From contig CAZUED010000001.1 in the NCBI GenBank assembly GCA_964619545.1, positions 1 to 47,897 on the forward strand: a stretch of 47,897 nt of DNA, in the 5' to 3' direction. Position 1 is the stretch's first letter. Each line of letters opens with the position of its first letter. The position numbers and the translations under genes were made by a program. The notes under the pieces are model-generated. The model worked only from the letters and a program-made list of their open reading frames with translations. It made no database searches and was not told the origin of the DNA. Positions 31,911 through 47,897 of the stretch are shown here, piece by piece. This DNA comes from an uncultured Muribaculaceae bacterium. GTDB taxonomy: Bacteria; Pseudomonadota; Alphaproteobacteria; Rs-D84.

Positions 31911-33530
31911 TTGGCCAACTATAACAATAATTTTAACGATGAACTGCGGCAGCGATTGTCAATCGTTGATGTAATTGGACGCCGCGTTCCGCTGGTTAAA
32001 AAAGGTCAAAATTATTGGGGATGTTGCCCATTTCATAATGAAAAAACTCCTTCATTTTCTGTGAATGAGCAGAAAGGTTTTTATCATTGCTTTGGTTGTG
32101 GTGAACATGGGGATATAATCTCGTTCACTATGAAATCGCAAAATATGGGATATGTTGATGCAATAAAAGAGCTGGCACAGCAAGCTGGATTAAAGCTGCC
32201 GGACTATAAACCCAAATCAGCCGAGCAACAAGCGCACGAGCAAACTTATTTTGACATTTGTGAAAATGCAGCAAAGTTATATCTACAAAAATTATATGAC
32301 GAATCTGGACGGGCCGCACTGGAATATATCCGCGGACGTGGCTTTACCGATGAAATTATAAAAAAATATCGTTTGGGATATGCGCCAAAAAATAATTCTT
32401 TGTCAGCAAAATTTGCAGATCAAAAAGAATCTAATTTAATTGCCACAGGATTGGTCAGACGTGGAGATTATGGTTTATATGATTTTTTCCGCGACAGGTT
32501 GATGTTTCCTATCTTTAATGTTCGTGGACAAGTTGTTGCGTTCAGTGGTCGTTCTATGGATGGGTCCGAACCTAAATATATCAACACATCAGATACAGAA
32601 TTATTTCATAAAAGACAAACTATCTTTGGACTCAATTTTGCGCGTGACGCAATTTACAAGGCCAATCGCAGTATAGTGGTCGAGGGTCAAATTGATGCAA
32701 TCCAAATGCAAACTCATGGCTTTTCTGAAACGGTTGCGCCACTTGGTACTGCGCTTACTGAAGAGCATTTACAGGTTTTGTGCAAATCAAACAGAAATAT
32801 AATTTTTTGTTTTGACGGGGATAATGCAGGACAAAAGGCTGCAGCGCGCGCGGCTGGTTTAATTATGCCATTTTTGCGCGATAATTCTGATGTTCGTTTT
32901 GCCTTTGTTTCGGGCGGCAAAGACCCTGATGAAATCCTTAAAAAATCAGATGGTATAATAGAGATGAAAAAGATTATAGATTATTCATTGCCACTTGTTG
33001 ATTTTTTATGGGACACAGCAAATAAAAACTTTTTGATTTCAACACCTGGTGGTAGGACTCGTGCGGAAAAATTTCTTGCCGCTGAAATACAAAAAATTAC
33101 AGATTTATCGTTGCGCAGCGAATTCCGTCAAGAATACGATCAAAGAAAATTTAATTTGTGGCACAAGTGGAAATCGGACAACAAGAAAAGTAAAACAGAA
33201 ATAGAAATTCCAAAGGTTGATGATTTGGTTATACGGGCTTTATCTGAAATTGCATCGACTTATCCAGATTTGGTTGAAAAACATTGTGAGTTTTTATTGA
33301 AACTTGGTGTGCAAATTGATGATACTAAAAACGCTGTATGTGCATTGAATAAAGAAGATGCGGAAAAATTCATAGTTTCTGTAAAGTTAAAAAATTATAT
33401 CAATAACTTACAATTGGACCGCGCGGCTGCAATGAAAGAAATGACCGCAGAATCCATGGCGCGTGCCAAGGCAATTAATTCTGAAATTGAATCTGTAACT
33501 GAAAAATTAAACAAACTCGCCGAGGTTTAG
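31911..33530 (+). CDS. dnaG: DNA primase
   Basis: 539 aa. TTG start immediately after the topA stop. Zinc finger CCPFHNEKTPSF...CFGCGEHGD, RNA polymerase core, TOPRIM VVEGQIDAIQM...FDGDNAGQKAA. Confidence 0.93.
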   Translation: MANYNNNFNDELRQRLSIVDVIGRRVPLVKKGQNYWGCCPFHNEKTPSFSVNEQKGFYHCFGCGEHGDIISFTMKSQNMGYVDAIKELAQQAGLKLPDYKPKSAEQQAHEQTYFDICENAAKLYLQKLYDESGRAALEYIRGRGFTDEIIKKYRLGYAPKNNSLSAKFADQKESNLIATGLVRRGDYGLYDFFRDRLMFPIFNVRGQVVAFSGRSMDGSEPKYINTSDTELFHKRQTIFGLNFARDAIYKANRSIVVEGQIDAIQMQTHGFSETVAPLGTALTEEHLQVLCKSNRNIIFCFDGDNAGQKAAARAAGLIMPFLRDNSDVRFAFVSGGKDPDEILKKSDGIIEMKKIIDYSLPLVDFLWDTANKNFLISTPGGRTRAEKFLAAEIQKITDLSLRSEFRQEYDQRKFNLWHKWKSDNKKSKTEIEIPKVDDLVIRALSEIASTYPDLVEKHCEFLLKLGVQIDDTKNAVCALNKEDAEKFIVSVKLKNYINNLQLDRAAAMKEMTAESMARAKAINSEIESVTEKLNKLAEV

Positions 33531-34606
33531 TTATTAAACAAAAAGTGGCAGATGTCGCCCTGTTGCATTACATAGTCGCGACCTACCAGTCTCATTTTTC
33601 CAGCCTCTTTTGCCGCAACTTCACCGCCAAATTTTAACCAATCCTCTGGCGCAATTATTTCTGCGCGGATAAAGCCTTTCTCGAAATCCGTGTGAATTTT
33701 ACCTGCTGCCTGTGGCGCGGTCATACCAACATTTATTGTCCAAGCATGTGCTTCTTTCGGTCCAACCGTATAAAAAGTTTGTAGACCCAAAGTTTCATAT
33801 CCTGTTTTTATAACTTGATCCAATCCAGATTCTTTTAATCCAAAATCATCCAAAAACATTTTTCTTTCTGTGATGTCTGCAATCTGGGCAATTTCCATTT
33901 CTATTTTTGATGAAATTACCAAAACTTTGGATTCTTTGCTGTATTTGTTTTTTACAGAATCTGAAAATTTATTTCCATTTGCAGCGGCCACTTCGTCTAC
34001 ATTACAAACATAAATTACTGGTTTTGCGGTCAATAATTGAAATTCTGGAATCCAATACTCACTGCGGCGCGCAGGAATTCCAGCCTCTAAATCTTTTTTG
34101 ATTTTTTCCGCAGCATCTAATTGCTTTATCGCTTCTTTATCCAGACCGCGGGCTTTCTTTGTTAAATTTGCAATTTGCTTTTCCAGACTTTCCAGATCAG
34201 CCAACATCAGCTCGGTTTCAATAGTTGCAATGTCGTCCAATGGGTCAATTTTTCCATTCACATGGACTATATCATCGTTTTCAAAACAACGAACAACGTG
34301 GATTATCGCATCAACCGCCTGAATGTGTCCCAAAAATTTATTCCCCAGCCCTTCACCACTGCTGGCACCTTTGACAAGTCCAGCTATATCAACTACTTCA
34401 AGTTGTGTAGGTATTATTTTTTGAGACTTTGCCGATTCTGCCAATTTTTCCAACATTTCATCTGGCACAATAACTTTGCCAGTATTAGGTTCAATCGTGC
34501 AAAAAGGGTAATTTTGCGCCGCAGCGGCCTGGGTCGCAGTCAACGCATTAAAAAGCGTGGATTTTCCCACGTTCGGCAGCCCAATAATTCCACAATTGAA
34601 TCCCAT
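33527..34606 (-). CDS. ychF: Ribosome-binding ATPase YchF
   Basis: I prefer the ATG at 34606 (MGFNCGIIGLPNVGKSTLFNALT). C-terminal TGS-like domain ...HTDFEKGFIRAEI.... Its stop overlaps the dnaG stop by 4 nt (convergent). Confidence 0.94.
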   Translation of the reverse strand: MGFNCGIIGLPNVGKSTLFNALTATQAAAAQNYPFCTIEPNTGKVIVPDEMLEKLAESAKSQKIIPTQLEVVDIAGLVKGASSGEGLGNKFLGHIQAVDAIIHVVRCFENDDIVHVNGKIDPLDDIATIETELMLADLESLEKQIANLTKKARGLDKEAIKQLDAAEKIKKDLEAGIPARRSEYWIPEFQLLTAKPVIYVCNVDEVAAANGNKFSDSVKNKYSKESKVLVISSKIEMEIAQIADITERKMFLDDFGLKESGLDQVIKTGYETLGLQTFYTVGPKEAHAWTINVGMTAPQAAGKIHTDFEKGFIRAEIIAPEDWLKFGGEVAAKEAGKMRLVGRDYVMQQGDICHFLFNN

Positions 34607-34633
34607 CTTAAAATCCTTTATAGTGCAGATAAT

Positions 34634-35311
34634 ATGAACTACTTGTGGCAAGAATTCAACATAAAAACCTTTCCCGCAGAAACTATTGTTTTTCGTGACG
34701 GGATTTATCAACCCGAATTATCAACTTTGCCAAATAGCCTTAAAATTGAAAAAAAATATGATTTGCCAGTTCATATTATTTATATTGGCGATATTTTTGG
34801 TAAAAAAGATATAACTTTTGAGATTTCTGCCGAAAATCAACCGGTTTTCCTTAGTGTTAAAATTACAAATAAAAAACCGGCCTTTTTGGACATTTTTATC
34901 AAAAACACCGGTAAAAATTCTGATTTTACTGGTAAGTTTTTATTTCAGAATTTTTCTGAGTTGGAAATTAACGAAAAAGCCGGTTATTTCGCAGAAAACA
35001 CAGGTATTTTTCTTGAAAATCGTATTATTGCCCATCCTAAAACAAAAACTAAACTTTGTGGAATAGCCACAATTTCAAAAGAAAGTCCTTTATGTAAATC
35101 TGATTTGAGTTTTGCAGCCTTGGCTGCTTCAGATGCACAAGTAGAATTTAAACCAGAACAATGTATTACTATCACCCCAAAGGTCGCCAGCCACTCTGCT
35201 TTTATTTGGAAGGGTACTGATCAACAAATCCAATACTTACGCTCCGCGGGTCTTTCTGGTGATGAAATTAAAAAAGTTTTAGAGGAAGCCTTTACAAATG
35301 GTTTTGTATAG
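34634..35311 (+). CDS. SufD-like (SufB/SufD beta-helix family) protein, short and divergent
   Basis: In-frame ATG at 34634 inside ORF 34175..35311; the upstream part is antisense to ychF. The C-terminus ...VEFKPEQCITITPKVASHSAFIWKGTDQQIQYLRSAGLSGDEIKKVLEEAF resembles the SufD/SufB C-terminal signature (PxLxI...xxxHxAxxGxxdxxqlFYLxSRGisxxeAxxll). Confidence 0.55.
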   Translation: MNYLWQEFNIKTFPAETIVFRDGIYQPELSTLPNSLKIEKKYDLPVHIIYIGDIFGKKDITFEISAENQPVFLSVKITNKKPAFLDIFIKNTGKNSDFTGKFLFQNFSELEINEKAGYFAENTGIFLENRIIAHPKTKTKLCGIATISKESPLCKSDLSFAALAASDAQVEFKPEQCITITPKVASHSAFIWKGTDQQIQYLRSAGLSGDEIKKVLEEAFTNGFV

Positions 35312-35812: not shown

Positions 35813-36112
35813 ATGAAACAGCAAGTCTTAAAATCCTTGGCTAATCCGGCGCGCATATTTTATGTGCCGTATAACCTTGCAATACTTAATTTTGTAGTTC
35901 AATTTATTGTTTTTATGGTTATTTTTATAATTGGAATAACAACTTCGCCCAGTTATGAAATGCCTATAGATCCATTATATTTTTTACTATCGGTTGTAAT
36001 TGTTCATTTTATTCTAGCATTCTATTCAAAAAAAGAACCGCAATTAATGCAAATTATTTTAGCAAAATTAAGGTTGTTTGGAAAATTTATTCCAAAAATT
36101 CTAAGAGTGTAA
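35813..36112 (+). CDS. virB3: Type IV secretion system protein VirB3
   Basis: 99 aa. N-terminal LKSLANPARIFYVPYNLAILNF followed by two TM segments. Immediately upstream of virB4. Confidence 0.8.
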   Translation: MKQQVLKSLANPARIFYVPYNLAILNFVVQFIVFMVIFIIGITTSPSYEMPIDPLYFLLSVVIVHFILAFYSKKEPQLMQIILAKLRLFGKFIPKILRV

Positions 36113-36117
36113 AAAAA

Positions 36118-38532
36118 GTGCAAGATTTTTTTAATTTTTTTGTATCAGATATATCATCACCAACAACATTTGTGATGTTTGGTGCTATTATACTTTTTGT
36201 AATAATTATGTATTTTTATTCAAATGTATTATCAAAAACAATTTTGCCAAAATTTGGATATAGAAAATACTCTGATTATCTGCCTTTTTCATCAATTTAT
36301 TCTGATAATACAACTATTGGTTTGTTAGATGGGTCTATTGTCAGGGCTTATGAAATTGCTGGAATTCAGACATCTATGCATGATGATGAAACCAAGAAGA
36401 AGTTTTTAGAGCTACGAGCTCAATTATTAAATCAAATTAAAGATCCAACAATAACAATTAGATTTTTTATGATTCGTGATGCTGTCCAGCAAAACACTAA
36501 TTATGAATTTGATCAACCTATTTTACAAAAAATTAGCGATAACTGGAACGCCCAAGGATTAAAAATTTTCAAAAATTCATATTATGCTGTAATCAGTATA
36601 GCTGGCGGTGCACATGATAAAATGGCGCAAGTTTCAACTTATTTTGAATCAATTATGGCCGCATACAAACCGGTTTTATTAAAACATAATTCGACCAAGA
36701 ATTTTGCATCTCTTTATGCGCGTATTTTATCGCCATTATCAAAACCTGGTGTTTTTAGAACTGATTCTAATATGTCAAATTTAATAACAACCGATGAGAT
36801 AAGTTTTGGTTTTGACGGAATTATTACAGCTTCACATGGGTCTGATAAAAAGTATATGGCTATGGCGTCGTTTAAAACATCACCAGATTTTATGGATGAA
36901 GAATTTTTTGATTCAATTGGAACAATCCAGACAGAATTAATTTGTATGAGTGCTTTTAACGTTTTGGGATCATCAAAAACAGAAACAATTATTCGTCAAA
37001 AAATGGCCAGCAGCGATTCTAATAAAAACGAAAGTGGTGATGTTGCCACTCAGCAGATTGGTGAAGCATTATACTCGATGGATGAAAATGTAACAGGAAA
37101 TCAAAGCCTGATGGATTATTATCCTCTTTTTGTTCTTTCTGGTGATACAAAAGAAGAGTTGTCAGAACATATAAACGAGTTTAATAAAATTTGTGCAGGA
37201 TTTGGAATTTCACCTGTGGTGGAAAGTTTTGCTGCAAAAGTTTCTTGGTTTGCAATGTTACCCGGATTTGATGTTTTCCCACGTTCATTCAAGTTGCTTT
37301 CTATGACTGCCGCAACAAGTTTTCCATTATCCAGCTCGCCAGTTGGGGTTGAAAATTCTGATTGGGGCCCAGGTCCACTGGTTATATTTCCAACCAGCAG
37401 TGGAACACCATATCAGTTCCAATTTCATGTATCTGAATCTGCAGCGGCGGTTGCGCATACATTAACAATTGGACCAACAGGTGGTGGAAAAACAACATTA
37501 TTTTCTTTCTTGATTTCAATGTCACTGCGACATCAAAAATTAAAAGCATTCTTTTTTGATAGAAATCGCGGGGCAGAAATCTTTACATTGGCAACAGGTG
37601 GAAAATATCTGACCTTTAATGCAAAGTCTAAAGATAAAGTTGCGGCAGGTTTCGAGACCCGACTAAATCCATTCAAGTTGGATGACACAGACGCTAATCG
37701 CGCTTTTCTGCGACGTTGGCTGATGATGATCTCTGGGCAAAACGATCCACAATCTTTGGATGAAATAGCGCGCGCAGTATCGGTAAATTTTGATTATTTA
37801 GATGAAAGTCAAAGAAAGTTGAAAAATTTGTGGGTATCTAATTTTGCATCAGATGGCAAAATGCGTCCGGCGTTAAAACAATGGGTTGATGATTTGCAAT
37901 ATGGCAGTATCTTTAACGAAAATACCGATACATTGGATTTATTCTCACGTCTTACTACATTTGATTTTACTGATGTTTTGGCGGATGAAACTTTGGCGCC
38001 AGCGGTAATTTCTTATATATTACACAGAATAAATACAGCAACCGTGTCTGGTGGAAATCCTGCATTAATTATGATTGATGAAACCGCGCCCATGTTGGAA
38101 AATAAAATGTTCCGCGATAACTTTGTTGTTGGTTTGCAAGAAGGAAGAAAAAACAGACAAGCGTACATGGCGGCATTCCAGCGCGCAAATGTTTTGGATA
38201 AATTGGGCATCGGTGACGTTGTCCGTGGTCAGGCACAAACGATCTTGTTCTTCCGCAATCCTGGTGCTGACACGGCGGATTACGAGCACTGGAAGCTGAA
38301 CCCATTAGAAATGGCATTTATCCAAGGGCGCGCTTATCCTAATCTGAAACGTGCAGTTTTGTTGTCGCGTCCTGTTACTGGCGAGTCCGTAATTTTGAAC
38401 ACAGAATTAGGAGGCCTGGGCAGCTTGCTTCGATTATTCGAGTCAGGTCGTTCATCGGTATTATTAGCAGAGGAATTGTATAAACAATACGGGAATCAGT
38501 TTGTTGAAGAATACTTACGCAAGACCGCATAA
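36118..38532 (+). CDS. virB4: Type IV secretion system ATPase VirB4
   Basis: 804 aa. GTG at 36118 (alternative ATG at 36175). ...DYLPFSSIY...GLLDGSIVRAYEIAGI..., Walker A GPTGGGKTT, Walker B region ALIMIDETAPML. Confidence 0.92.
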   Translation: MQDFFNFFVSDISSPTTFVMFGAIILFVIIMYFYSNVLSKTILPKFGYRKYSDYLPFSSIYSDNTTIGLLDGSIVRAYEIAGIQTSMHDDETKKKFLELRAQLLNQIKDPTITIRFFMIRDAVQQNTNYEFDQPILQKISDNWNAQGLKIFKNSYYAVISIAGGAHDKMAQVSTYFESIMAAYKPVLLKHNSTKNFASLYARILSPLSKPGVFRTDSNMSNLITTDEISFGFDGIITASHGSDKKYMAMASFKTSPDFMDEEFFDSIGTIQTELICMSAFNVLGSSKTETIIRQKMASSDSNKNESGDVATQQIGEALYSMDENVTGNQSLMDYYPLFVLSGDTKEELSEHINEFNKICAGFGISPVVESFAAKVSWFAMLPGFDVFPRSFKLLSMTAATSFPLSSSPVGVENSDWGPGPLVIFPTSSGTPYQFQFHVSESAAAVAHTLTIGPTGGGKTTLFSFLISMSLRHQKLKAFFFDRNRGAEIFTLATGGKYLTFNAKSKDKVAAGFETRLNPFKLDDTDANRAFLRRWLMMISGQNDPQSLDEIARAVSVNFDYLDESQRKLKNLWVSNFASDGKMRPALKQWVDDLQYGSIFNENTDTLDLFSRLTTFDFTDVLADETLAPAVISYILHRINTATVSGGNPALIMIDETAPMLENKMFRDNFVVGLQEGRKNRQAYMAAFQRANVLDKLGIGDVVRGQAQTILFFRNPGADTADYEHWKLNPLEMAFIQGRAYPNLKRAVLLSRPVTGESVILNTELGGLGSLLRLFESGRSSVLLAEELYKQYGNQFVEEYLRKTA

Positions 38533-38539
38533 AATTATT

Positions 38540-39154
38540 ATGAAAAAAATTATAATAACTCTTTCAATATTTTATTTTTTCACTTTTTCACTTTATGCGT
38601 CGGATTGTTTGCAGTATAAAGCCTCGCCATCGGTAAAAATAACAACTCCAGAATGGAGCAAAAAGGTCGCACAACCAGATGTTCCTATGGACGCGATGCA
38701 TGGAACGGTTGTCGCCAGTTTTGATGAAGAGTATGATTTGCAAGTTGCCGCTCAACCAGTGTCAGATGGCTATTGTGTAATTTTGAACAAGTTAGATGCG
38801 ACGCTGGGTTATACGGGTTTTTTGGTGAATATAGACCGGTCTCATACGCCAGGTTCATGTGGATACACAATGACTTTGGAACATGAAGAAGAGCATATTT
38901 ATGCTCACCTAGAAGCGTTCAAAAATGAATTTGAAAACATGAAAAAATCAACACAAGCAGCAGCAGATAGCATCATGCCGATTTTTGTAAAAAGTCTGGA
39001 CGGAGTCAATGACGCACTGGACAAGATGCAGCAAGAATTACAATCTCACCCGGATATAGTTTTGATGAAGCAAAAGTTGAGCGCCAGTCAAGAAATCTTA
39101 AACAAGAAAGTGGACGAGCGCGACGACGGAGTCCGAATAAATTTGTGTAAATAA
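38540..39154 (+). CDS. Secreted hypothetical protein with HExxH motif (possibly DUF922-like metallopeptidase), in the virB5 position
   Basis: ATG at 38540, 8 nt after the virB4 stop. Signal peptide MKKIIITLSIFYFFTFSLYA. HEEEH at nt 38882-38896. C-terminal about 80 aa predicted helical (KNEFENMKKSTQAAADS...QQELQSH...). Confidence 0.6.
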   Translation: MKKIIITLSIFYFFTFSLYASDCLQYKASPSVKITTPEWSKKVAQPDVPMDAMHGTVVASFDEEYDLQVAAQPVSDGYCVILNKLDATLGYTGFLVNIDRSHTPGSCGYTMTLEHEEEHIYAHLEAFKNEFENMKKSTQAAADSIMPIFVKSLDGVNDALDKMQQELQSHPDIVLMKQKLSASQEILNKKVDERDDGVRINLCK

Positions 39155-41729: not shown

Positions 41730-41942
41730 TTACCTGATTTTCTCAAAACGATATTTATCTTTAATATGGTGGTCAAAATAAGTCCCGACAGAAGATGTAA
41801 AAATCAAGCCTTGGTATTCCGAGGTCGGAACTTGAAAATATCTGTATATTCCGCCACTATGAAATTCGATTTCTAAAATAAAGTTAATTTGATCAAAGCC
41901 AACACTTTTTATATTGCTAGACTTGACATTAACTCTATCCAT
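41730..41942 (-). CDS. KTSC domain-containing protein
   Basis: I prefer the ATG at 41942. MDRVNVKSSNIKSVGFDQINFILEIEFHSGGIYRYFQVPTSEYQGLIFTSSVGTYFDHHIK matches the KTSC pattern (SSxIxxxGYD...LxVxFxxGxxYxYxxVPxxxYxxLxxAxSxGxYFNxxI). Confidence 0.72.
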   Translation of the reverse strand: MDRVNVKSSNIKSVGFDQINFILEIEFHSGGIYRYFQVPTSEYQGLIFTSSVGTYFDHHIKDKYRFEKIR

Positions 41943-42062
41943 AATAGCCTTCTTTGGTTGTATTACATTAACAATACAATCAAATTTTAATAAAATAAAA
42001 TGGATTTTATTCCTTTTTATAAAACAAAAAACCACCCATAAGGGATGATTTTACTTTTTATT

Positions 42063-42139
<77 letters not shown>

Positions 42140-42233: not shown

Positions 42234-42953
42234 ATGAAGAAAAAATTTAGAGATGTTTGGAAAAAATTTTGGCGCAAATTCTTTGGCGCTCCTCCTATCC
42301 AATGGCTCTTGGCTATTTTTATGCTTGTCGGAATTTACCTTGTTTATTTTACTTCGAAAAAAGACATTCGTGGCGAGGCCTTGTTCCGCGAATATAGCCG
42401 CAAGCCTGCCATTTTCGTTTTCTGGCATGGGCGCAGTATGATGCTGTCCCCTATCGTTCGTAAGTGTGGAGTTCGTGGTTATGCCCTGTCTTCTCGCCAT
42501 AAAGATGGTCGCATGATGGCAAAGCTTCAACGCTTGTTCGGATTAAAAGCTATTTACGGCAGCACCGGTCGCGATGGCGCTGTGTCTGCCCTTCGTCAGG
42601 GTGTGCGCCGCCTGAACGAGGGCTATGTGTTGGCGCTGTCCCCCGACGGACCAAAAGGGCCGTTGATGCGCTTGAATGACGGCGCTTTGTATTACTCGCG
42701 CATGACTGGCGCGCCCATCATTCCTGTGTGTTTTTCTTGCTCGCGCCCTTGGTTTCAAAAGCGTTGGGATCGTTATTTAATTGCGACTCCGTTTTCTAAA
42801 ATCGCGTGCAGTGTCGGACAGCCTATTTTTATCACCAAAGACAATTTTGACGGCGCAAAAGAAAATCTTGAACAGATGATGATAAAGCAGCTGCAAGATA
42901 TGGATGCCGAGTTCGGTTTGCCAAAAATGCAACCCGGTCCTGTTAAAAAATGA
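42234..42953 (+). CDS. DUF374 domain protein (lysophospholipid acyltransferase-like)
   Basis: 239 aa. ...IFVFWHGRSMML...SSRHKDGRMMAKL...GSTGRDGAVSALR...LSPDGPKGP... typical of DUF374, a family usually linked to waaA/lpxK in alphaproteobacteria. Confidence 0.8.
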   Translation: MKKKFRDVWKKFWRKFFGAPPIQWLLAIFMLVGIYLVYFTSKKDIRGEALFREYSRKPAIFVFWHGRSMMLSPIVRKCGVRGYALSSRHKDGRMMAKLQRLFGLKAIYGSTGRDGAVSALRQGVRRLNEGYVLALSPDGPKGPLMRLNDGALYYSRMTGAPIIPVCFSCSRPWFQKRWDRYLIATPFSKIACSVGQPIFITKDNFDGAKENLEQMMIKQLQDMDAEFGLPKMQPGPVKK

Positions 42954-43843
42954 AAACACCAACTTGGTTTTTAAGAAAAAATTTAATTGCTTGGCTTTTG
43001 TTGCCTGTATCTGTTGTGTATTTTATTGCTTCGTATCTGGTTTATTTTTACCGGCTTTTTCGGCAAAAATCGTCAAAAACACCGGTAATTTGCATAGGCG
43101 GATTATTAGCCGGAGGCGTTGGCAAGACTCCAATAGTTCGAGAAATTGCCAAAAAGACCGGCTCTGCGGTCGTTTTGCGTGGCTATAAAGGTGGGGACGA
43201 AGCGCGAATGTTATCCGGATCTGGGCTGTCTGTTTTTGTTGGCGCGGATCGCTTACAAAGTATAAAAAGTGCTGAAAAGGCCGGCTTTGCATCAATAGTC
43301 ATGGATGATGGTTTTCAAAATCCCAGCATAAAAAAAGACATTTCCATTTTAGTTTTTGATGGAAAAATTGGTGTTGGTAATAGTTTTATTTTGCCTGCTG
43401 GACCTTTGCGACAGCCGCTTTGCGCTGTTCGTCGTGCGGACGCCATTATTATCATAGGCAATAAAAATCAATTGATTGCGCGTGATTTAAAAAAATTTGG
43501 CGTGCCAATTTTTTATGCTGAAAATAAAACAATTTTACCAGTCAAAATTCGCAAATTTATCGCCTTTGCGGGAATTGGTTATCCTGAAAAATTTTTCGAT
43601 GGGTTATCTGTAAAGCCAATTAAAACTTTATCTTTTCCGGATCATTATGAATATACGGCATCGGATATAAAAAAATTATTAGCCATAGCAGATGCTGAAA
43701 AATCCGGCCTTTTGACCACTGAAAAAGACTGGGTTCGATTGCCGGTCGCTGTTCGTCGCAAAATTAAATTTGCCGCATTAGAAACAACTATTTCTGATGA
43801 ATTTTATTCTTGGTTAGAAAAACAAATGGTAATTAAAAAATGA
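42950..43843 (+). CDS. lpxK: Tetraacyldisaccharide 4'-kinase
   Basis: 297 aa. N-terminal membrane helix, P-loop GGLLAGGVGKTP, MDDGFQN. Confidence 0.9.
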   Translation: MKTPTWFLRKNLIAWLLLPVSVVYFIASYLVYFYRLFRQKSSKTPVICIGGLLAGGVGKTPIVREIAKKTGSAVVLRGYKGGDEARMLSGSGLSVFVGADRLQSIKSAEKAGFASIVMDDGFQNPSIKKDISILVFDGKIGVGNSFILPAGPLRQPLCAVRRADAIIIIGNKNQLIARDLKKFGVPIFYAENKTILPVKIRKFIAFAGIGYPEKFFDGLSVKPIKTLSFPDHYEYTASDIKKLLAIADAEKSGLLTTEKDWVRLPVAVRRKIKFAALETTISDEFYSWLEKQMVIKK

Positions 43844-44769
43844 TAAAAAGTGTTAAATTTTCAGGCGTTGGAATTCACTCGGGCGTTATGACCAATGTCG
43901 TTGTAAGCCTATCAAAAACGCCGGGCATTGTCTTTTACAGGGTTGATTTACCAACCCCCGAACCAATTCCTGCGGTTTGGGATAATGTTCAAAATACTGG
44001 TTTGATGAGCACTTCTATTGGCACGGCCCCAAATCAAGTTCAGACTATCGAGCATTTTATGGCGGCTTTATTCATTTGTGGAATTGATTCTGCAATCGTA
44101 GAAATTGATGGTTCGGAATTTCCAATTATGGACGGAGGCGCAAAAAGCTTTATTGAAATTTTGCAACCGATTGCCAACTATAAAATTAAGCCCAAAAAAA
44201 TAATTGTTAAAAAAGAAGTTATGGCAACTCGTCAGGAAGTCATTAAAAAAATGCCGATTCTAAAACGTTTGGCTTTATGGATTCATGGCAAGAAAACTGG
44301 TCGCAAGGAAGATGGCTTTGTTAAATTATCCCCGGATGCGCGAGGATTTTCAATGGATGTGACTTTGGATTATCCTGATAAAATTATTGGCGTGCAAAGT
44401 GTAGAGTTTCTTTTCGACGGCAGTATTGCTGCACGTAAAGATTTTATCAAAAATTTTTCTCATACCCGTACTTTTGGCAGAATTTGGGAATGGGAGTATC
44501 TGAAAAAGCGCGGAATGGGCATGGGAGCAAATGAAAACAACGTTATTGCAATCAATGAAACTGGTGATGGAGTGTTAAACAAACTTTATTCTCCGGATGA
44601 ATTTGTCAGACATAAATTGATTGATGCTTTGGGTGATTTTTACACCAGTGGAGGAATGATTGTTGGGAATTTAAAGTCTGTAAAAGGAAGTCATGCTTTG
44701 AACAATCTTGTTTTGCAAAAGCTGTTTGCAGACCCATCAAATTACGAAATAAAGGAAGGCAGAATATGA
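43840..44769 (+). CDS. lpxC: UDP-3-O-acyl-N-acetylglucosamine deacetylase
   Basis: 309 aa. GVGIHSG, TIEHFMAAL, EFPIMDGGAKSF, FVRHKLIDALGDF. Confidence 0.94.
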   Translation: MIKSVKFSGVGIHSGVMTNVVVSLSKTPGIVFYRVDLPTPEPIPAVWDNVQNTGLMSTSIGTAPNQVQTIEHFMAALFICGIDSAIVEIDGSEFPIMDGGAKSFIEILQPIANYKIKPKKIIVKKEVMATRQEVIKKMPILKRLALWIHGKKTGRKEDGFVKLSPDARGFSMDVTLDYPDKIIGVQSVEFLFDGSIAARKDFIKNFSHTRTFGRIWEWEYLKKRGMGMGANENNVIAINETGDGVLNKLYSPDEFVRHKLIDALGDFYTSGGMIVGNLKSVKGSHALNNLVLQKLFADPSNYEIKEGRI

Positions 44770-45086
44770 AAAAATTGTTTTTGATAATGCCGTTGGCGCT
44801 GTTTGCTTGTACTAACTCGGTTAAGCCAGAATCTGGCGCGGCGGCTTTGATAGAAATAAAGTCTGCCTCGGTCGAATGCAAGTTTTTATATATGATGGAT
44901 GCAGATGCAAGTTTTTACTCGGAAGCCGACGCAATAAGATATGTTGAAAATCAAATTGCCAAAAAAGGCGGAAATTCTTTTGTTATAGTAAAAAAAGAAA
45001 AGCGTCAAAACGAATGGAAAATGTTTGCGCCCGAATACTCTTATGCTATAACCGCGAATGTTTATGATTGCCCAGCTGTCAAATAA
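44766..45086 (+). CDS. Small lipoprotein (DUF4156-like)
   Basis: 106 aa. Lipobox LALFAC; Cys...GGNSFVIV...VYDC pattern. ATGA overlap with lpxC. Confidence 0.6.
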   Translation: MKKLFLIMPLALFACTNSVKPESGAAALIEIKSASVECKFLYMMDADASFYSEADAIRYVENQIAKKGGNSFVIVKKEKRQNEWKMFAPEYSYAITANVYDCPAVK

Positions 45087-45095
45087 TTTGTATAA

Positions 45096-46364
45096 TTGGA
45101 AAAACGGAGGGAGTTTTTGTCGGCAGGGGTTATAACTATTGAGCGCAAAAAATATGCGGTCGGGCTGTTTTGGCAGCCGTTGCCCGCTGGTCAAAATACC
45201 CGTGATTTTGCCAGGCAACTTTCCAAGCAGATTACAGGAAGTGTAAAATTTTATGCCGAGTTCAGATCAATGGTTGGTGTTGGTACTCGCGCGCTGGGTC
45301 ATCGCCGAGGTATGAAGATCGCCGCTATTGAGATTATAAATGCTTTTGCAGAGTATAATTCATTTTTGGCCGAATTTTTTACCCCGCAGGGTTTTTGGAT
45401 TATAGCAGTCAGAAACAACATCATAATTTTTGACCAATTATTTGGTGCCGAGGCCGAAGCAAAGCGGGAATTTATAAATTTATCAGCATTGCCAGACTGG
45501 GGTATAATTATTGCGCCCGGAAACTGGAATGTTCCAAGATCGGTCGAGAAATCTTTGCGCGACATTATTTCGGGAAATTCTAAAGTAGCATTGACACCAA
45601 TAGGCGGCACATTGGGAAATATTTTTTCAATAGCGGTTTTTGCCGCTATTGCTTCTGTTTTTTGGTATTTTTTCCAAGACCCAATAATCAAAGTTTTTGC
45701 CCCTCGTGCACAACAAGCACAAATAAATCCCCAGGTTATAGAAGAGTACAAACGGCAATTGGAAATCAAAAAAATCCAACAAGAAGACGTTATTCAACCG
45801 ATACGCGCTGATATGCCTTATGATAATCTGCCAGATGCGCTACTTTATGCTGAAAAATGCTGGAGATCCATAGCCTATGTTATGCAGCCGATTACAGGTT
45901 GGGTTCAGCAAAGTGCAGAATGTATAGATAATACTGCCAGCGCCAGGTTTGTTCGCACTTATGGAACGCTTGCAGGTTTGCATGAATCTGCATACTCTTT
46001 GATGGGTGATGTGTTTATTGTTGAAAATACTGATTCTGATGCTGTGATTAGTGTGCCTTTTGCTCCTTTACCACCAGCTGAGAACAATACACCAAAAAAT
46101 CTGACCGAGGACATTGTTTTTTCAATAAGCAGTTTATTTCAGACAATTGGTGAATCTGCAAATGTCCGATCTGGTATGGAAACAAGCGGAGAGGGAGAAG
46201 CGGCCGTAACATCAAATGTGGTTATAGTAAGTGCCGCATCGAAGTTAAAGCCGGATGAATTTATCAAAATTTTTGATGGAATTTCACCGCTTTATTTATC
46301 GTCTGTCAAATGGGATGCGCGATCGCGCACTTGGAACTATGAGGTTAAAATCTATGCTAAATAA
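45096..46364 (+). CDS. PilO2-like type IVb pilus biogenesis protein (bitopic inner-membrane protein)
   Basis: 422-aa ORF. A likelier start is the TTG at 45117, after GGAGGG. N-terminal ...VITIERKKYAVGLFWQPL... resembles the PilO/PilO2 (PAP_PilO) N-terminus as I recall it. Single central TM IFSIAVFAAIASVFWYFF. Followed by PilP-like and ATPase genes. Confidence 0.55.
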   Translation: MEKRREFLSAGVITIERKKYAVGLFWQPLPAGQNTRDFARQLSKQITGSVKFYAEFRSMVGVGTRALGHRRGMKIAAIEIINAFAEYNSFLAEFFTPQGFWIIAVRNNIIIFDQLFGAEAEAKREFINLSALPDWGIIIAPGNWNVPRSVEKSLRDIISGNSKVALTPIGGTLGNIFSIAVFAAIASVFWYFFQDPIIKVFAPRAQQAQINPQVIEEYKRQLEIKKIQQEDVIQPIRADMPYDNLPDALLYAEKCWRSIAYVMQPITGWVQQSAECIDNTASARFVRTYGTLAGLHESAYSLMGDVFIVENTDSDAVISVPFAPLPPAENNTPKNLTEDIVFSISSLFQTIGESANVRSGMETSGEGEAAVTSNVVIVSAASKLKPDEFIKIFDGISPLYLSSVKWDARSRTWNYEVKIYAK

Positions 46365-46989
46365 AAAATATAAAACCCCCATGGCGGCCATGTTTGTTAT
46401 TGCTTTGGCGTTCATGCCATCACTAGCAAGAAGTGCCGAAAATGTAAACGTTGAAGAATACGATCCGGCTGGTTCAATGTTCCAAATGATTACTGATTTG
46501 GAGCAAGAAAAAGTCATCTGGCAGTTGGAAAAAGAAAAAGCACAACTGCAACTGGATATGGACAGAATGGCAGCAGAGCAAATGCGCTTGAAAAACGAAA
46601 TGGACGCAATGCAAGGTTCAGGCAATACCCAGGCCGAGGCATTAGAACTGGAGCGCCAAAGATTAGAAATTGAAAAACAAAAATTAGAAGCGCAAAGAAA
46701 AAGTATTGATGAATCAGTCGTAACACCAACCAGAACTTCTGCGACCAATCGGGTCGAAGTTGAAGAACAATCGCCTATACAAGAAAAATACAGATTGATT
46801 GAAATTGTTGGTGCTGGACGCCAGTTGCTGGCAACGGTCGAGGACAATGCGACAGGTCAGCGCAAAAAGATTTCTGTTGGAAAAGATTTGGACGGCTATC
46901 GTATTGATTCTGTATCGTTAGATGAGGGTGTTATTATGTCAAAAGATGGACAGATTGCAACACTTGGGATTCATGCCGATCAACAATAG
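46354..46989 (+). CDS. PilP-like type IVb pilus biogenesis protein
   Basis: ATG at 46354 inside ORF 46255..46989, overlapping the previous gene by 11 nt. Signal peptide MAAMFVIALAFMPSLARSA, coiled coil, C-terminal beta domain YRLIEIVGAGRQLLATVEDNATGQRKKISVGKDLDGYRIDSVSLDEGVIM typical of PilP. Confidence 0.55.
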   Translation: MLNKKYKTPMAAMFVIALAFMPSLARSAENVNVEEYDPAGSMFQMITDLEQEKVIWQLEKEKAQLQLDMDRMAAEQMRLKNEMDAMQGSGNTQAEALELERQRLEIEKQKLEAQRKSIDESVVTPTRTSATNRVEVEEQSPIQEKYRLIEIVGAGRQLLATVEDNATGQRKKISVGKDLDGYRIDSVSLDEGVIMSKDGQIATLGIHADQQ

Positions 46990-47000
46990 TTTAATTAAAT

Positions 47001-47897
47001 ATGTCTGTACGAAAAAATCTTGAAAAAGAACAATTATCTGAAAGCAGTGTTACATTATCTGTTCCGGGTGATGTCGCGGCATTAACCCAGAAAGAAATAA
47101 TAGAACATCTTTTTTATAAGGGGAATACTCTGCTGACAGCAACCGGTGGTGCACTGGAGACCGCGCGCGATACCCAAAATCTTTTAGCATATTTTTCAGG
47201 TGGTGAAATTGTTATTTCGCGCACACATCGATATGATGGCCGGGTAATTTCTTTCTTGGAATTGCTGAAAAAAGAGAAGCGCATAGTTAAAGAGCCTTTC
47301 TATAGCGATCTGGGTTTGATTTCTGTAATTTACCGATTTAATGAGACCAAAACTGCTGGTTCGCCAACACGTGCACCGATGTATTATGATAATCAGATGC
47401 AAAAGGACTTTGTGGATATAATTGCGCGTGCTGCATCCATGAAAGTTTCTGACATTCATATAGAAGTTGCGGACCAGACAACAATTTATTTCCGTCTAGA
47501 TGGCAGCATGCAGTCTGTCATGGAATATAATTCTGGATGGGGCGAATCATTTATTCGTGCAGCTTTTGCATCTGCAGATCAATCAAGTTCTAACTATGCT
47601 CAGAACGAGTATCAAAGCGCACAAAAAGATGGGCGCACACCTTTACGCGGAACTCGTGATCTTTACCTGCCTGCTGGGATTATGGGTGTTAGAATGCAGT
47701 TTAATCCGATTGCATTCGGAAGTCGATATGTTGTTATGCGATTGCTTTATGATAATCCAACCGAAACAATAAAGACGGAACAAGAGTTTGGTGAATATGA
47801 ACGAAATCTGTTGATGCGTATGCGTTCTTTTCCGACGGGCCTTGTTGTGGTTGCGGGTCCAACTAGCAGCGGTAAATCAACAACTTTGTTTCAGAAT
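47001..47897 (+). CDS. GspE/PilB-family secretion ATPase (PilQ-like type IVb pilus assembly ATPase), 3' end beyond the window
   Basis: Absent from the ORF track because it is open-ended. My translation from the ATG at 47001 gives ...ASMKVSDIHIEVADQTTIYFRLDGSM...VRMQFNPIAFGSRYVVMRLL...GLVVVAGPTSSGKSTTLFQN (Walker A). Confidence 0.8.
   Translation, partial: MSVRKNLEKEQLSESSVTLSVPGDVAALTQKEIIEHLFYKGNTLLTATGGALETARDTQNLLAYFSGGEIVISRTHRYDGRVISFLELLKKEKRIVKEPFYSDLGLISVIYRFNETKTAGSPTRAPMYYDNQMQKDFVDIIARAASMKVSDIHIEVADQTTIYFRLDGSMQSVMEYNSGWGESFIRAAFASADQSSSNYAQNEYQSAQKDGRTPLRGTRDLYLPAGIMGVRMQFNPIAFGSRYVVMRLLYDNPTETIKTEQEFGEYERNLLMRMRSFPTGLVVVAGPTSSGKSTTLFQN

What the first reader, a model, noticed from the sequence alone, without database searches (positions are those of the whole stretch)
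44766..47897. Type IVb pilus-like module (PilO2-like / PilP-like / ATPase) attached directly to the lipid A operon, with no secretin or pilin in view
Seen: three genes begin 9 nt (ORF-track TTG start at 45096) to 30 nt (preferred TTG start at 45117) after the small lipoprotein gene. The first encodes a roughly 415-aa bitopic protein with N-terminus VITIERKKYAVGLFWQPL and a single central TM. The second, overlapping by 11 nt, encodes a 211-aa signal-peptide protein with a coiled coil and a PilP-like C-terminal beta domain. The third, 11 nt later, encodes a GspE-family ATPase (SDIHIE..., GPTSSGKSTT) that runs off the window. Established: the order bitopic PilO(2), then PilP, then the PilQ ATPase is that of R64 thin-pilus and PAPI-1/ICE-type type IVb pilus clusters, and BfpC-BfpU-BfpD is analogous. 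There the genes are preceded by the PilL lipoprotein and the PilN secretin. Here only a 106-aa lipoprotein and lpxC precede them, and all genes are co-oriented. Inference: this is a chromosomal, possibly secretin-less or rearranged T4b-like machine in a reduced-genome bacterium that also keeps virB3/B4. It could act in conjugation/DNA uptake, adhesion or protein export, and it is possibly co-transcribed with envelope biogenesis genes. The family assignments of the first two proteins rest on my recall of sequence patterns and are the weakest link.
Basis: partly seen in the sequence, partly recalled or inferred. Interest (0 to 1): 0.7.

Follow-up and report, generated by a model that had tools for sequence, protein, structure and literature searches.

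The report
Chromosomal type IVb pilus assembly core
Right after the lipid A genes lie the inner-membrane scaffold and motor genes of a type IVb pilus. Relatives among tiny-genome gut alphaproteobacteria keep this module intact and in the same place, their pilin genes sit at a second locus, and no outer-membrane channel gene has been seen.

Summary
The 415-aa protein is a true PilO2. A profile comparison with plasmid PilO2 gives 99.4% probability, and the predicted fold matches the Burkholderia PilO2Bp and BfpC cytoplasmic domains. The 211-aa protein is PilP-like: it hits TIGR03021 but scores below the cutoff. The ATPase is BfpD-like. A GspF-type platform gene follows 3 nt after the ATPase in another strain of the same species. 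After that come fabD, fabG and gyrB, not pilins.

This is not a mobile-element pilus. The order lpxK-lpxC-(lipoprotein)-PilO2-PilP-ATPase-platform is conserved in about 70 of 80 related genomes, which are Candidatus Enterousia / Rs-D84-like gut Alphaproteobacteria with genomes under 1 Mb. The genes are under purifying selection as strong as on gyrB.

In the Enterousia relatives, a PilS-like pilin and three ~440-aa pilin-like paralogues sit at a second conserved locus (dnaX-pilin-ompA-skp-lpxD). In one genome that locus abuts the module.

No secretin, prepilin peptidase or retraction ATPase was found at either locus. Whole genomes could not be searched, so "secretin-less" remains untested. No pilin was found for the window's own sub-lineage.

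Verdict: a dispersed, vertically inherited variant of a known machine, of moderate interest.

The parts
42234..44769 (+). Upstream context: DUF374 (42234-42953), lpxK (42950-43843) and lpxC (43840-44769). The genes overlap one another and form the conserved upstream neighbour of the module.
   Evidence: Pfam gives DUF374 6.3e-18, LpxK 4.4e-61 and LpxC 2.6e-63. The order c6-c4-c2 precedes the module in about 70 of 80 related loci.
44766..45086 (+). Small lipoprotein of 106 aa (lipobox LFAC, two conserved Cys). It belongs to a lineage-restricted, DUF4156-like family. It usually, but not always, sits between lpxC and PilO2. Whether it belongs to the pilus machine is not established.
   Evidence: There is no Pfam or NCBIfam hit. 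It was found as cluster 7 at 72 of the 85 module loci clustered, and the gap check recovered it at three more and confirmed it absent from L011, L013, L014, L015, L022, L024 and L056 (also absent from L072). Only 43 representative clusters exist among 1.84 billion proteins, and one distant member is named DUF4156. The AF2 model has pLDDT 79 and only a weak RcsF/YdgH-like fold match, E about 0.1. dN/dS is 0.12.
45068..45096 (+). Promoter-like site TTGCCC-17 nt-TATAAT, 21 nt upstream of the PilO2 start. A GGAGG Shine-Dalgarno sequence follows at 45106-45110. This may be an internal promoter, in addition to read-through from lpxC.
   Evidence: The consensus scan found it at L001 2968-2996, which is window coordinate minus 42100. 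The TATAAT, the GGAG and the TTG start are kept in the window, L005 and L008. The -35 half lies in coding sequence, and the total number of promoter-like sites in the region does not exceed the shuffles, so this is suggestive only.
45117..46364 (+). PilO2 (415 aa, TTG start). It is a bitopic inner-membrane protein with an actin-like cytoplasmic domain (about residues 1-135), a TM helix at 166-184, a periplasmic helix and two ferredoxin-like alpha/beta domains (about 240-415).
   Evidence: Homologues are named 'type 4b pilus protein PilO2' by NCBI, and many carry PF06864. 11 of 20 aligned members hit PF06864, but the window copy itself does not. hhalign against Bosea plasmid PilO2 gives 99.4%, E 9.5e-22, over 380 columns; against E. 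coli plasmid PilO2 it gives 98.0%, E 1.7e-13. The top three Foldseek hits are 4byz, 3vhj and 4bz0 (PilO2Bp and BfpC cytoplasmic domains), all with probability 1.0.
46354..46989 (+). PilP-like periplasmic protein (211 aa) with a signal peptide, a coiled coil of about 90 residues and a C-terminal beta domain.
   Evidence: TIGR03021 pilP_fam scores 2.7e-6, 28.4 bits, below the cutoff of 34.65. All 14 aligned family members hit TIGR03021, best 1.8e-10. There is no detectable similarity to the positional equivalents on the Bosea and E. coli plasmids.
47001..47897 (+). N-terminal 299 codons of a 547-aa type IVb extension ATPase (BfpD / R64 PilQ type). The gene is cut by the end of the window.
   Evidence: The translation shows the Walker A motif GPTSSGKST. 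Pfam T2SSE scores 3.8e-12 on the fragment and 7.1e-63 on the full length from L001. Against PDB sequences, the full-length protein scores 1.5e-79 with BfpD, 9.4e-46 with GspE, about 1e-40 with PilB and about 1e-25 with PilT.

Best explanation
The region encodes the inner-membrane assembly core of a type IVb-class pilus. Outside the window, in the same species, a GspF-type platform gene completes it.

Proposed mechanism, inferred from the characterised BFP/R64/PilMNOP systems:
1. The hexameric BfpD-like ATPase docks on the polytopic platform protein and on the cytoplasmic actin-like domain of the bitopic PilO2.
2. The periplasmic alpha/beta domains of PilO2 pair with the PilP-like protein. Its coiled coil and beta domain reach toward the outer membrane.
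3. ATP-driven movement of the platform lifts processed pilins out of the inner membrane and into a growing filament.

The pilins are not encoded here. In the Enterousia relatives, a 152-aa PilS-like pilin and three ~440-aa pilin-like paralogues sit at a second conserved locus next to dnaX-ompA-skp-lpxD.

The module is not a mobile-element pilus. It is an ancestral, vertically inherited chromosomal feature of a clade of gut Alphaproteobacteria with genomes under 1 Mb (Candidatus Enterousia / order Rs-D84 and relatives). It lies directly behind lpxK-lpxC and is probably transcribed both by read-through and from its own promoter.

Shown: the gene identities, the order, the conservation, the purifying selection and the split architecture in the Enterousia clade. 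Inferred: that a filament is made, how it crosses the outer membrane, and its use. I consider attachment to a partner or host cell, or DNA/nutrient scavenging, most likely for an auxotrophic, partner-dependent organism.
For: Identity of the parts:
- PilO2.
- PilP-like.
- ATPase closest to BfpD by more than 30 orders of magnitude over GspE/PilB.
- Platform T2SSF, 5.5e-23, starting 3 nt after the ATPase in L001.

Gene order:
- It matches plasmid type IVb clusters, secretin-PilO2-small protein-ATPase-platform.

Vertical inheritance:
- 315 matching stretches encoding a relative were found among the species-representative genomes.
- The synteny DUF374-lpxK-lpxC-(lipoprotein)-PilO2-PilP-ATPase-platform-...-gyrB holds in about 70 of 80 loci.
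- GC is about 0.40, the same as the flanks.

Function maintained:
- dN/dS is 0.083 for PilO2, 0.027 for the ATPase and 0.038 for the platform, against 0.044 for gyrB.

Pilins exist in the clade:
- L072 carries a pilin (PF08805 PilS, 24.1 bits against a cutoff of 22) about 1.5 kb upstream of PilO2 (two genes, an OmpA-domain lipoprotein and skp, lie between), plus three pilin-like genes.
- The pilin family has 350 clusters.
- The pilin locus is conserved in about 45 loci.
- The pilin has an invariant SGRSLIE motif and two Cys.

Lifestyle:
- One relative has a complete 716,531-bp chromosome.
- Rs-D84 genomes are under 1 Mb and are described as partner-dependent (PMC12306168).
Against: - No secretin, TcpQ-like partner, A24 prepilin peptidase, lytic transglycosylase or second (retraction) ATPase was found in the window, in the 8 kb downstream, in about 10 kb on each side of the module in 80 relatives, or at the pilin loci.
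- No pilin was found in the window or in any locus of the window's own sub-lineage. For this genome, the pilin is extrapolated from relatives whose PilO2 is only about 40% identical.
- The window's PilO2 and PilP copies do not themselves reach the curated Pfam and NCBIfam thresholds.
- The PilP-like protein shows no similarity to the proteins in the same position on two plasmids.
- The clade's pilin has a 6-residue leader and an invariant Arg at +1, which is atypical for type IVb pilins. That typicality judgement is from my own knowledge.
- There is no expression or imaging evidence.
Confidence: 0.78

Rival explanations
1. It is a truly secretin-independent machine. The type IVb-type core would build a short periplasmic endopilus or piston, or a filament that leaves through another outer-membrane route. 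Such a machine could serve DNA or nutrient uptake, or export, rather than forming a classical surface pilus.
For: In plasmid type IVb clusters the TcpQ-like and secretin genes lie immediately upstream of PilO2. Here that position holds lpxC and a 106-aa lipoprotein in about 70 genomes. No secretin-like ORF appears in 2.27 Mb of fetched loci. There is also no retraction ATPase. The pilin has a short, pseudopilin-like leader, and one source names it 'type II secretion system protein'.
Against: Absence was tested only within about 10 kb of two loci, and these genomes already scatter the system over at least two loci. The organism is diderm, with lpxC, lpxK and TolC in the window and LptD and Skp in relatives. 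All characterised diderm type IV pilus and T2SS machines use a secretin (general knowledge). The PilP-type beta domain is retained, and in other systems that domain contacts the secretin.
Confidence: 0.15
2. It is a remnant of an integrated conjugative plasmid or ICE thin-pilus operon of the R64/PAPI-1 type. In that case it would be recently acquired and partly deleted.
For: The closest annotated homologues of PilO2 and the ATPase in the plasmid collection lie on conjugative or large plasmids. virB3 and virB4 are 6-9 kb upstream of the module.
Against: The same housekeeping flanks (lpxK-lpxC upstream, gyrB downstream) recur in about 70 of 80 species-level genomes. No integrase, relaxase or tra genes are adjacent. 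GC matches the flanks. dN/dS is as low as for gyrB. Identity to plasmid PilO2 is only about 22%.
Confidence: 0.03
3. It is the inner-membrane part of a type II secretion system, with the ATPase acting as GspE, the platform as GspF, PilO2 as a GspL analogue and PilP as a GspC analogue.
For: T2SSE and T2SSF are shared Pfam families. The ATPase fragment also hits TIGR02533 gspE, at 50.6 bits against a cutoff of 630. The periplasmic part of the PilO2 model weakly resembles a Pul inner-membrane component, 5hl8, probability 0.77.
Against: The full-length ATPase matches BfpD at 1.5e-79 against 9.4e-46 for GspE. PilO2 and TIGR03021 are type IVb-specific families. The associated pilin hits PF08805 PilS. 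No GspD, C, G-K, L or M genes were seen.
Confidence: 0.04

Closest known systems
Type IVb pilus clusters with PilO2 (R64 thin pilus, PAPI-1 pilL2-pilV2, and the Bosea pBSY19_1 and E. coli plasmid clusters read here)
   Same: The core order is the same: PilO2, a small periplasmic protein, a BfpD/PilQ-type ATPase, then a GspF-type platform. PilO2 is homologous over its full length, at 99.4% and 98.0% hhalign probability. The ATPases are 33-37% identical over 87-88% of their length.
   Different: The plasmid clusters have TcpQ-like and secretin genes directly upstream. Downstream they carry a second ATPase, then (E. coli) an A24 peptidase and a lytic transglycosylase or (Bosea) a PilV-type adhesin gene; in the E. 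coli cluster the major pilin lies upstream. All of this lies in one block on a mobile replicon. Here none of those genes is adjacent. The flanks are lpxK-lpxC and fabD or gyrB. The module is chromosomal and vertically inherited, and the pilins (in relatives) are at another locus.
Bundle-forming pilus of EPEC (BfpC, BfpD, BfpE)
   Same: The ATPase's best solved relative is BfpD, at 1.5e-79 and nearly full length. The cytoplasmic domain of PilO2 matches the BfpC cytoplasmic domain 3vhj, with probability 1.0 and a target-normalised TM-score of 0.68.
   Different: BFP is a 14-gene plasmid operon with the secretin BfpB, BfpG, the peptidase BfpP and the retraction ATPase BfpF (general knowledge; BfpB/BfpG per PMC12531336). 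No counterpart of these was found here.
Burkholderia pseudomallei PilO2Bp (PDB 4byz/4bz0)
   Same: It is the top structural match to the predicted N-terminal domain, with E 3.5e-6 and 21-23% identity.
   Different: Only the cytoplasmic domain has been solved. That system's context was not examined here.
Type IVa PilM-PilN-PilO-PilP alignment subcomplex
   Same: The functional logic is the same: a cytoplasmic actin-like module linked by a single TM helix to periplasmic ferredoxin-like domains, plus a PilP-type beta-domain protein. This comparison is an inference from the AF2 topology and general knowledge.
   Different: In the type IVa system these are separate proteins of different sequence families. 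The ATPase here is far from PilB, at about 1e-40 against 1e-79 for BfpD.

Membership tests
Type IVb pilus system (PilO2-containing, R64/PAPI-1/BFP class) | PilO2/BfpC-type bitopic protein: actin-like cytoplasmic domain, one TM helix, periplasmic domain (PF06864) | tested here: met
   hhalign against two plasmid PilO2 proteins gives 99.4% and 98.0%. The top Foldseek hits are PilO2Bp and BfpC. 11 of 20 family members hit PF06864. Caveat: the window copy alone gives no Pfam hit at E<=1.
Type IVb pilus system (PilO2-containing, R64/PAPI-1/BFP class) | PilP-family periplasmic protein (TIGR03021) | tested here: inconclusive
   The window copy scores 28.4 bits against a cutoff of 34.65. All 14 relatives match, best 1.8e-10. 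There is no similarity to the positional equivalents on two plasmids.
Type IVb pilus system (PilO2-containing, R64/PAPI-1/BFP class) | BfpD/PilQ-type extension ATPase | tested here: met
   BfpD scores 3.9e-27 on the window fragment and 1.5e-79 on the full length, well ahead of GspE, PilB and PilT.
Type IVb pilus system (PilO2-containing, R64/PAPI-1/BFP class) | GspF-family platform protein next to the ATPase | tested here: met
   It lies outside the window. L001, from the same species (PilP identical), has a 357-aa T2SSF protein starting 3 nt after the ATPase. It is present in nearly all related loci (78 of the 85 clustered; missing only where the contig ends).
Type IVb pilus system (PilO2-containing, R64/PAPI-1/BFP class) | Secretin (PilN/BfpB/TcpC type), usually with a TcpQ/BfpG-like partner | tested here: not met
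   None was found in the window, in the flanks of 80 related module loci, or at about 90 pilin loci, by Pfam scans and by phmmer with two plasmid secretins. Presence elsewhere in the genome could not be tested.
Type IVb pilus system (PilO2-containing, R64/PAPI-1/BFP class) | Type IV(b) major pilin with a class III signal peptide | tested here: inconclusive
   None was found in the window or in loci of its sub-lineage. The Enterousia clade has one: 152 aa, PF08805 at 24.1 bits, G|RSLIE, two Cys. In L072 it lies about 1.5 kb upstream of the module.
Type IVb pilus system (PilO2-containing, R64/PAPI-1/BFP class) | A24 prepilin peptidase | not testable with these tools
   None was found in any fetched locus. 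Whole genomes of the lineage could not be read.
Conjugative-element thin pilus (R64 / ICE PAPI-1) | Location on a plasmid or ICE together with transfer genes | tested here: not met
   The flanks are housekeeping genes conserved across about 70 genomes. Window annotation shows argS, nusA, infB, ileS, pheST, mreC, pbp2, rodA, topA and dnaG.
Type II secretion system | GspE equivalog ATPase together with GspD, C, G and L/M | tested here: not met
   TIGR02533 scores 50.6 bits against a cutoff of 630. BfpD is a far better match than GspE. No other Gsp genes were seen.

The most novel reading that the evidence does not exclude
A whole order of gut Alphaproteobacteria with genomes under 1 Mb (Rs-D84 / Enterousia and relatives) has kept a type IVb-derived filament machine with three unusual properties. 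It works without a dedicated secretin or retraction ATPase. Its parts are wired into the two lipid A / outer-membrane biogenesis operons: the machine sits behind lpxK-lpxC and the pilin ahead of skp-lpxD-fabZ. It uses an unusual Arg(+1) pilin and three giant pilin-like paralogues. It would serve as the organism's device for docking onto, or scavenging from, partner cells, which would parallel the pili of Patescibacteria.
Probability: 0.15. Interest if true: 0.75.

Novelty: new variant of a known kind. Interest (0 to 1): 0.45.

Why it matters
The one paper found and read on the order Rs-D84 describes it as ultra-reduced and probably partner-dependent. It reports type IV pili only for another lineage, not for Rs-D84 (PMC12306168).

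This analysis shows that relatives across this clade keep a type IVb-type assembly core under selection as strong as on gyrB. The Enterousia clade also keeps a pilin locus. Such a system is an obvious candidate for the cell-cell contact or uptake device that an auxotrophic organism would need.

The architecture is also unusual for this class, which normally comes as one mobile operon. Here it is split into conserved chromosomal pieces next to envelope-biogenesis genes, with no channel gene where one is expected. If complete genomes confirm that no secretin exists, this would be a tractable case of a diderm type IV filament machine without a secretin.

Tried and rejected
- Pfam and NCBIfam on the window's PilO2 alone gave nothing. 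The assignment needed homologues, profiles and a fold model.
- hhalign of the PilP alignment against the positional equivalents on the Bosea and E. coli plasmids gave probabilities of 2% or less.
- The 106-aa lipoprotein was examined as a possible PilL, pilotin or secretin substitute. It has no family hit, no PDB sequence hit and only weak RcsF/YdgH-like fold matches. It is absent from about 8 of 80 loci. I do not count it as an established part of the machine.
- The 685-aa unknown protein beside the Enterousia pilin locus was checked as a possible divergent secretin. It is a Cys-rich secreted protein with no secretin features.
- Regex and HMM searches for pilins in the window and in loci of its sub-lineage found none.
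- I tried to extend the window's contig by looking up ArgS, which added only about 1.2 kb.
- I tried to place pilin and module on one contig by matching record names and contig lengths. No match was found other than L072.
- The mSphere paper has no supplementary tables held as text.
- Literature searches for PilO2 with Rickettsiales, and for Enterousia with type IV, found no description of this system.
- The strongest terminator-like hairpin lies inside the PilO2 TM-coding segment. I treated it as coincidental.

Full report
**1. Observation**

- lpxC ends at 44769.
- A 106-aa lipoprotein gene (lipobox LFAC) spans 44766-45086.
- The next ORF can start at TTG 45096 (9 nt after the lipoprotein stop) or TTG 45117 (30 nt after) and ends at 46364.
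- A 211-aa ORF starts at ATG 46354, an 11-nt overlap, and ends at 46989.
- A third ORF starts at ATG 47001, 11 nt later, and runs off the window after 299 codons. It contains SDIHIE and the Walker A motif GPTSSGKST.

The alignment of 20 homologues and independent gene calls on four other contigs favour the 45117 start. A GGAGG lies 6 nt upstream of it, and the 45096 TTG overlaps a TATAAT box.

**2. What the three proteins are**

*First protein.* Pfam and NCBIfam give nothing for the window's copy alone. Four other lines identify it as PilO2:
- Its 568 homologues include many that NCBI names "type 4b pilus protein PilO2" and many with precomputed PF06864.
- 11 of 20 aligned members hit PF06864.
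- A profile of the family aligns over the full length with PilO2 of a Bosea plasmid (99.4%, E 9.5e-22) and of an E. coli plasmid (98.0%, E 1.7e-13).
- An AlphaFold2 model (pLDDT 79) has one TM helix at residues 166-184. Its three best PDB matches are the cytoplasmic actin-like domains of Burkholderia PilO2Bp (4byz, 4bz0) and of BfpC (3vhj), all with probability 1.0.

*Second protein.* It hits TIGR03021 (PilP family) at 2.7e-6, but 28.4 bits is below the 34.65 cutoff. All 14 family members tested hit the model, best 1.8e-10. It shows no similarity to the proteins in the same position on the two plasmids. "PilP-like" is therefore reasonable but not rigorous.

*ATPase.* It is of the type IVb kind. 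The full-length protein from the same species matches BfpD at 1.5e-79, against 9.4e-46 for GspE, about 1e-40 for PilB/PilF and about 1e-25 for PilT.

**3. What follows the window**

A Logan contig from another sample of the same species (L001) carries an identical PilP; its ATPase differs from the window's at 2 of the 299 residues seen. It shows the ATPase is 547 aa, followed 3 nt later by a 357-aa GspF-family platform protein. After that come fabD, a 46-aa ORF, fabG, an unknown gene on the other strand, and gyrB. No pilin, peptidase, second ATPase or secretin follows.

**4. Context and relatives**

The window is ordinary chromosome: argS, macAB-tolC, nusA, infB, mnmG, ileS, pheST, mreC, pbp2, rodA, topA, dnaG, ychF, virB3/virB4 and glycosyltransferases.

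A scan of species-representative genomes found 315 matching stretches that encode a PilO2 relative. The 80 best are uncultured gut Alphaproteobacteria: Candidatus Enterousia, "Rickettsiales"/"Alphaproteobacteria" MAGs from termites, ruminants, mice and humans, and one closed 716,531-bp chromosome.

My ORF clustering of those loci shows the order DUF374-lpxK-lpxC-(lipoprotein)-PilO2-PilP-ATPase-platform-...-gyrB in about 70 of 80. All 85 module loci clustered have PilO2 and the ATPase, and PilP and the platform are present wherever the contig extends far enough.

The module is under strong purifying selection. Against a relative with 91%-identical PilO2, dN/dS is 0.083 for PilO2, 0.027 for the ATPase and 0.038 for the platform, compared with 0.044 for gyrB and 0.083 for lpxC.

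GC does not differ from the flanks. This rules out a recent plasmid or ICE remnant and a decaying relic.

The literature places Enterousia in the order Rs-D84, with genomes under 1 Mb, no respiration and a likely partner-dependent lifestyle. That paper reports type IV pili only for a different lineage (PMC12306168). The window's own lineage has PilO2 only about 40% identical to Enterousia's, so its placement in or near Rs-D84 is an inference.

**5. Where the other parts are**

In plasmid type IVb clusters a TcpQ-like gene and a secretin gene lie directly upstream of PilO2. Downstream, both clusters carry a second ATPase; the E. coli cluster then has an A24 peptidase and a lytic transglycosylase, and the Bosea cluster a PilV-type adhesin gene. 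In the E. coli cluster the major pilin gene lies upstream.

One relative, L072, has lost the lpx neighbourhood. It has instead dnaX, a 152-aa pilin (MKSQSG|RSLIEV..., PF08805 PilS at 24.1 bits against a cutoff of 22), an OmpA-domain lipoprotein and skp directly upstream of PilO2. Three ~440-aa pilin-like genes lie on the other strand.

That pilin family has 350 clusters. In about 45 further loci it sits in a conserved second locus: three pilin-like paralogues | small ORF, dnaX, pilin, OmpA-lipoprotein, skp, often lpxD-fabZ. The pilin has an invariant SGRSLIE motif with Arg at +1 and two conserved Cys.

In the Enterousia clade the system is therefore split over at least two conserved chromosomal loci, both next to lipid A or outer-membrane biogenesis genes.

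No secretin, TcpQ, A24 peptidase, lytic transglycosylase or second ATPase was detected in 2.27 Mb of fetched loci. No pilin was detected in the window or in any locus of its sub-lineage. Whole genomes could not be read with these tools, so genome-wide absence is untested.

**6. The lipoprotein**

- It is conserved: dN/dS 0.12, a lipobox and two invariant Cys.
- It is missing from about 8 of the 80 related loci.
- Its family is tiny and lineage-restricted, with 43 representative clusters among 1.84 billion proteins. One distant member is named DUF4156.
- Its model has only weak RcsF/YdgH-like matches.
- It is far too small to form a channel. I leave its role open.

**7. Transcription**

Gene overlaps and gaps of 3-30 nt from DUF374 to the platform are compatible with one transcript. 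No convincing terminator separates lpxC from PilO2.

A TTGCCC-17-TATAAT site at 45068-45096, a GGAG and the TTG start are kept in relatives whose PilO2 is down to 63% identical. An internal promoter is therefore plausible. Both points come from consensus patterns only.

**8. Verdict**

The module is a type IVb-class pilus assembly core, completed by a platform gene just beyond the window.

The "secretin-less" idea remains open. The "conjugative-type" association does not hold.

What is new is the architecture and distribution: a dispersed, vertically inherited system embedded in envelope-biogenesis operons across a clade of ultra-reduced gut Alphaproteobacteria. No paper found in my searches of the held library describes it. 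I rate it a new variant of a known kind, interest 0.45.

Noticed in passing
L085:2981-11146 and about 45 other loci (L086-L088, L094, L097-L179); L072:965-9873: The Enterousia-type genomes share a second conserved locus. Three paralogous ~440-aa proteins with prepilin-like N-termini lie on one strand, followed by a Zn-ribbon/DUF3426 protein and a 154-aa protein. Divergently come dnaX, a 152-aa pilin whose start overlaps the dnaX stop, an OmpA-domain lipoprotein, skp, and often lpxD-fabZ. The pilin has an invariant Arg at the predicted +1 position. One contig (L095) has two tandem pilin copies.
   Followed up: partly
window 35813-39154: A virB3-like gene (99 aa, 35813-36112) and virB4 (36118-38532, CagE_TrbE_VirB 2.7e-13) are followed by a conserved 217-aa ORF with no family hit (38501-39154). 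This trio recurs a few genes upstream of the lpx-pilus block in many relatives (clusters 15-12-14). No other T4SS genes were seen nearby.
   Followed up: partly
L005, L006, L009, L018, L077 (record titles): Several public MAG records that carry this alphaproteobacterial locus are titled 'uncultured Muribaculaceae bacterium'. One of them is the closed 716-kb chromosome OZ246409.1. The gene content and nearest relatives indicate that the records' taxonomy label is wrong.
   Followed up: no
window 45628-45651 (L001:3528-3551): A perfect 10-bp stem with a 4-nt loop (CAATAGCGGT TTTT GCCGCTATTG), followed by a T-rich tail, lies inside the segment that encodes the PilO2 transmembrane helix. It was the strongest terminator-like site in the scan. 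It is probably a by-product of the hydrophobic codons, but its conservation was not checked.
   Followed up: no
window 34175-35311 (+), overlapping ychF 33527-34711 (-): The mechanical 378-aa ORF overlaps ychF. The real gene probably starts near MNYLWQEFNIKTFPAE, giving about 230 aa. It is conserved next to ychF in relatives (cluster 21) and has no Pfam hit.
   Followed up: no
window 42063-42139 (-) and 41730-42035 (-): A tRNA-Met gene and a KTSC-domain gene on the minus strand lie just upstream of DUF374. They mark the 5' boundary of the co-oriented block DUF374-lpxK-lpxC-lipoprotein-pilus.
   Followed up: no
L085:11179-13236 (-): Next to the pilin locus in some Enterousia genomes lies a 685-aa secreted protein. 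It has a low-complexity, Thr/Arg/Ala-rich N-terminal region and a Cys-rich C-terminal region, and no family hit.
   Followed up: partly
L015:7443-9893: In two relatives whose module is separated from lpxC (L015, L022), other genes precede PilO2. In L015 these are a 368-aa lipoprotein and a 447-aa signal-peptide protein with TPR-like repeats. They were not characterised.
   Followed up: no
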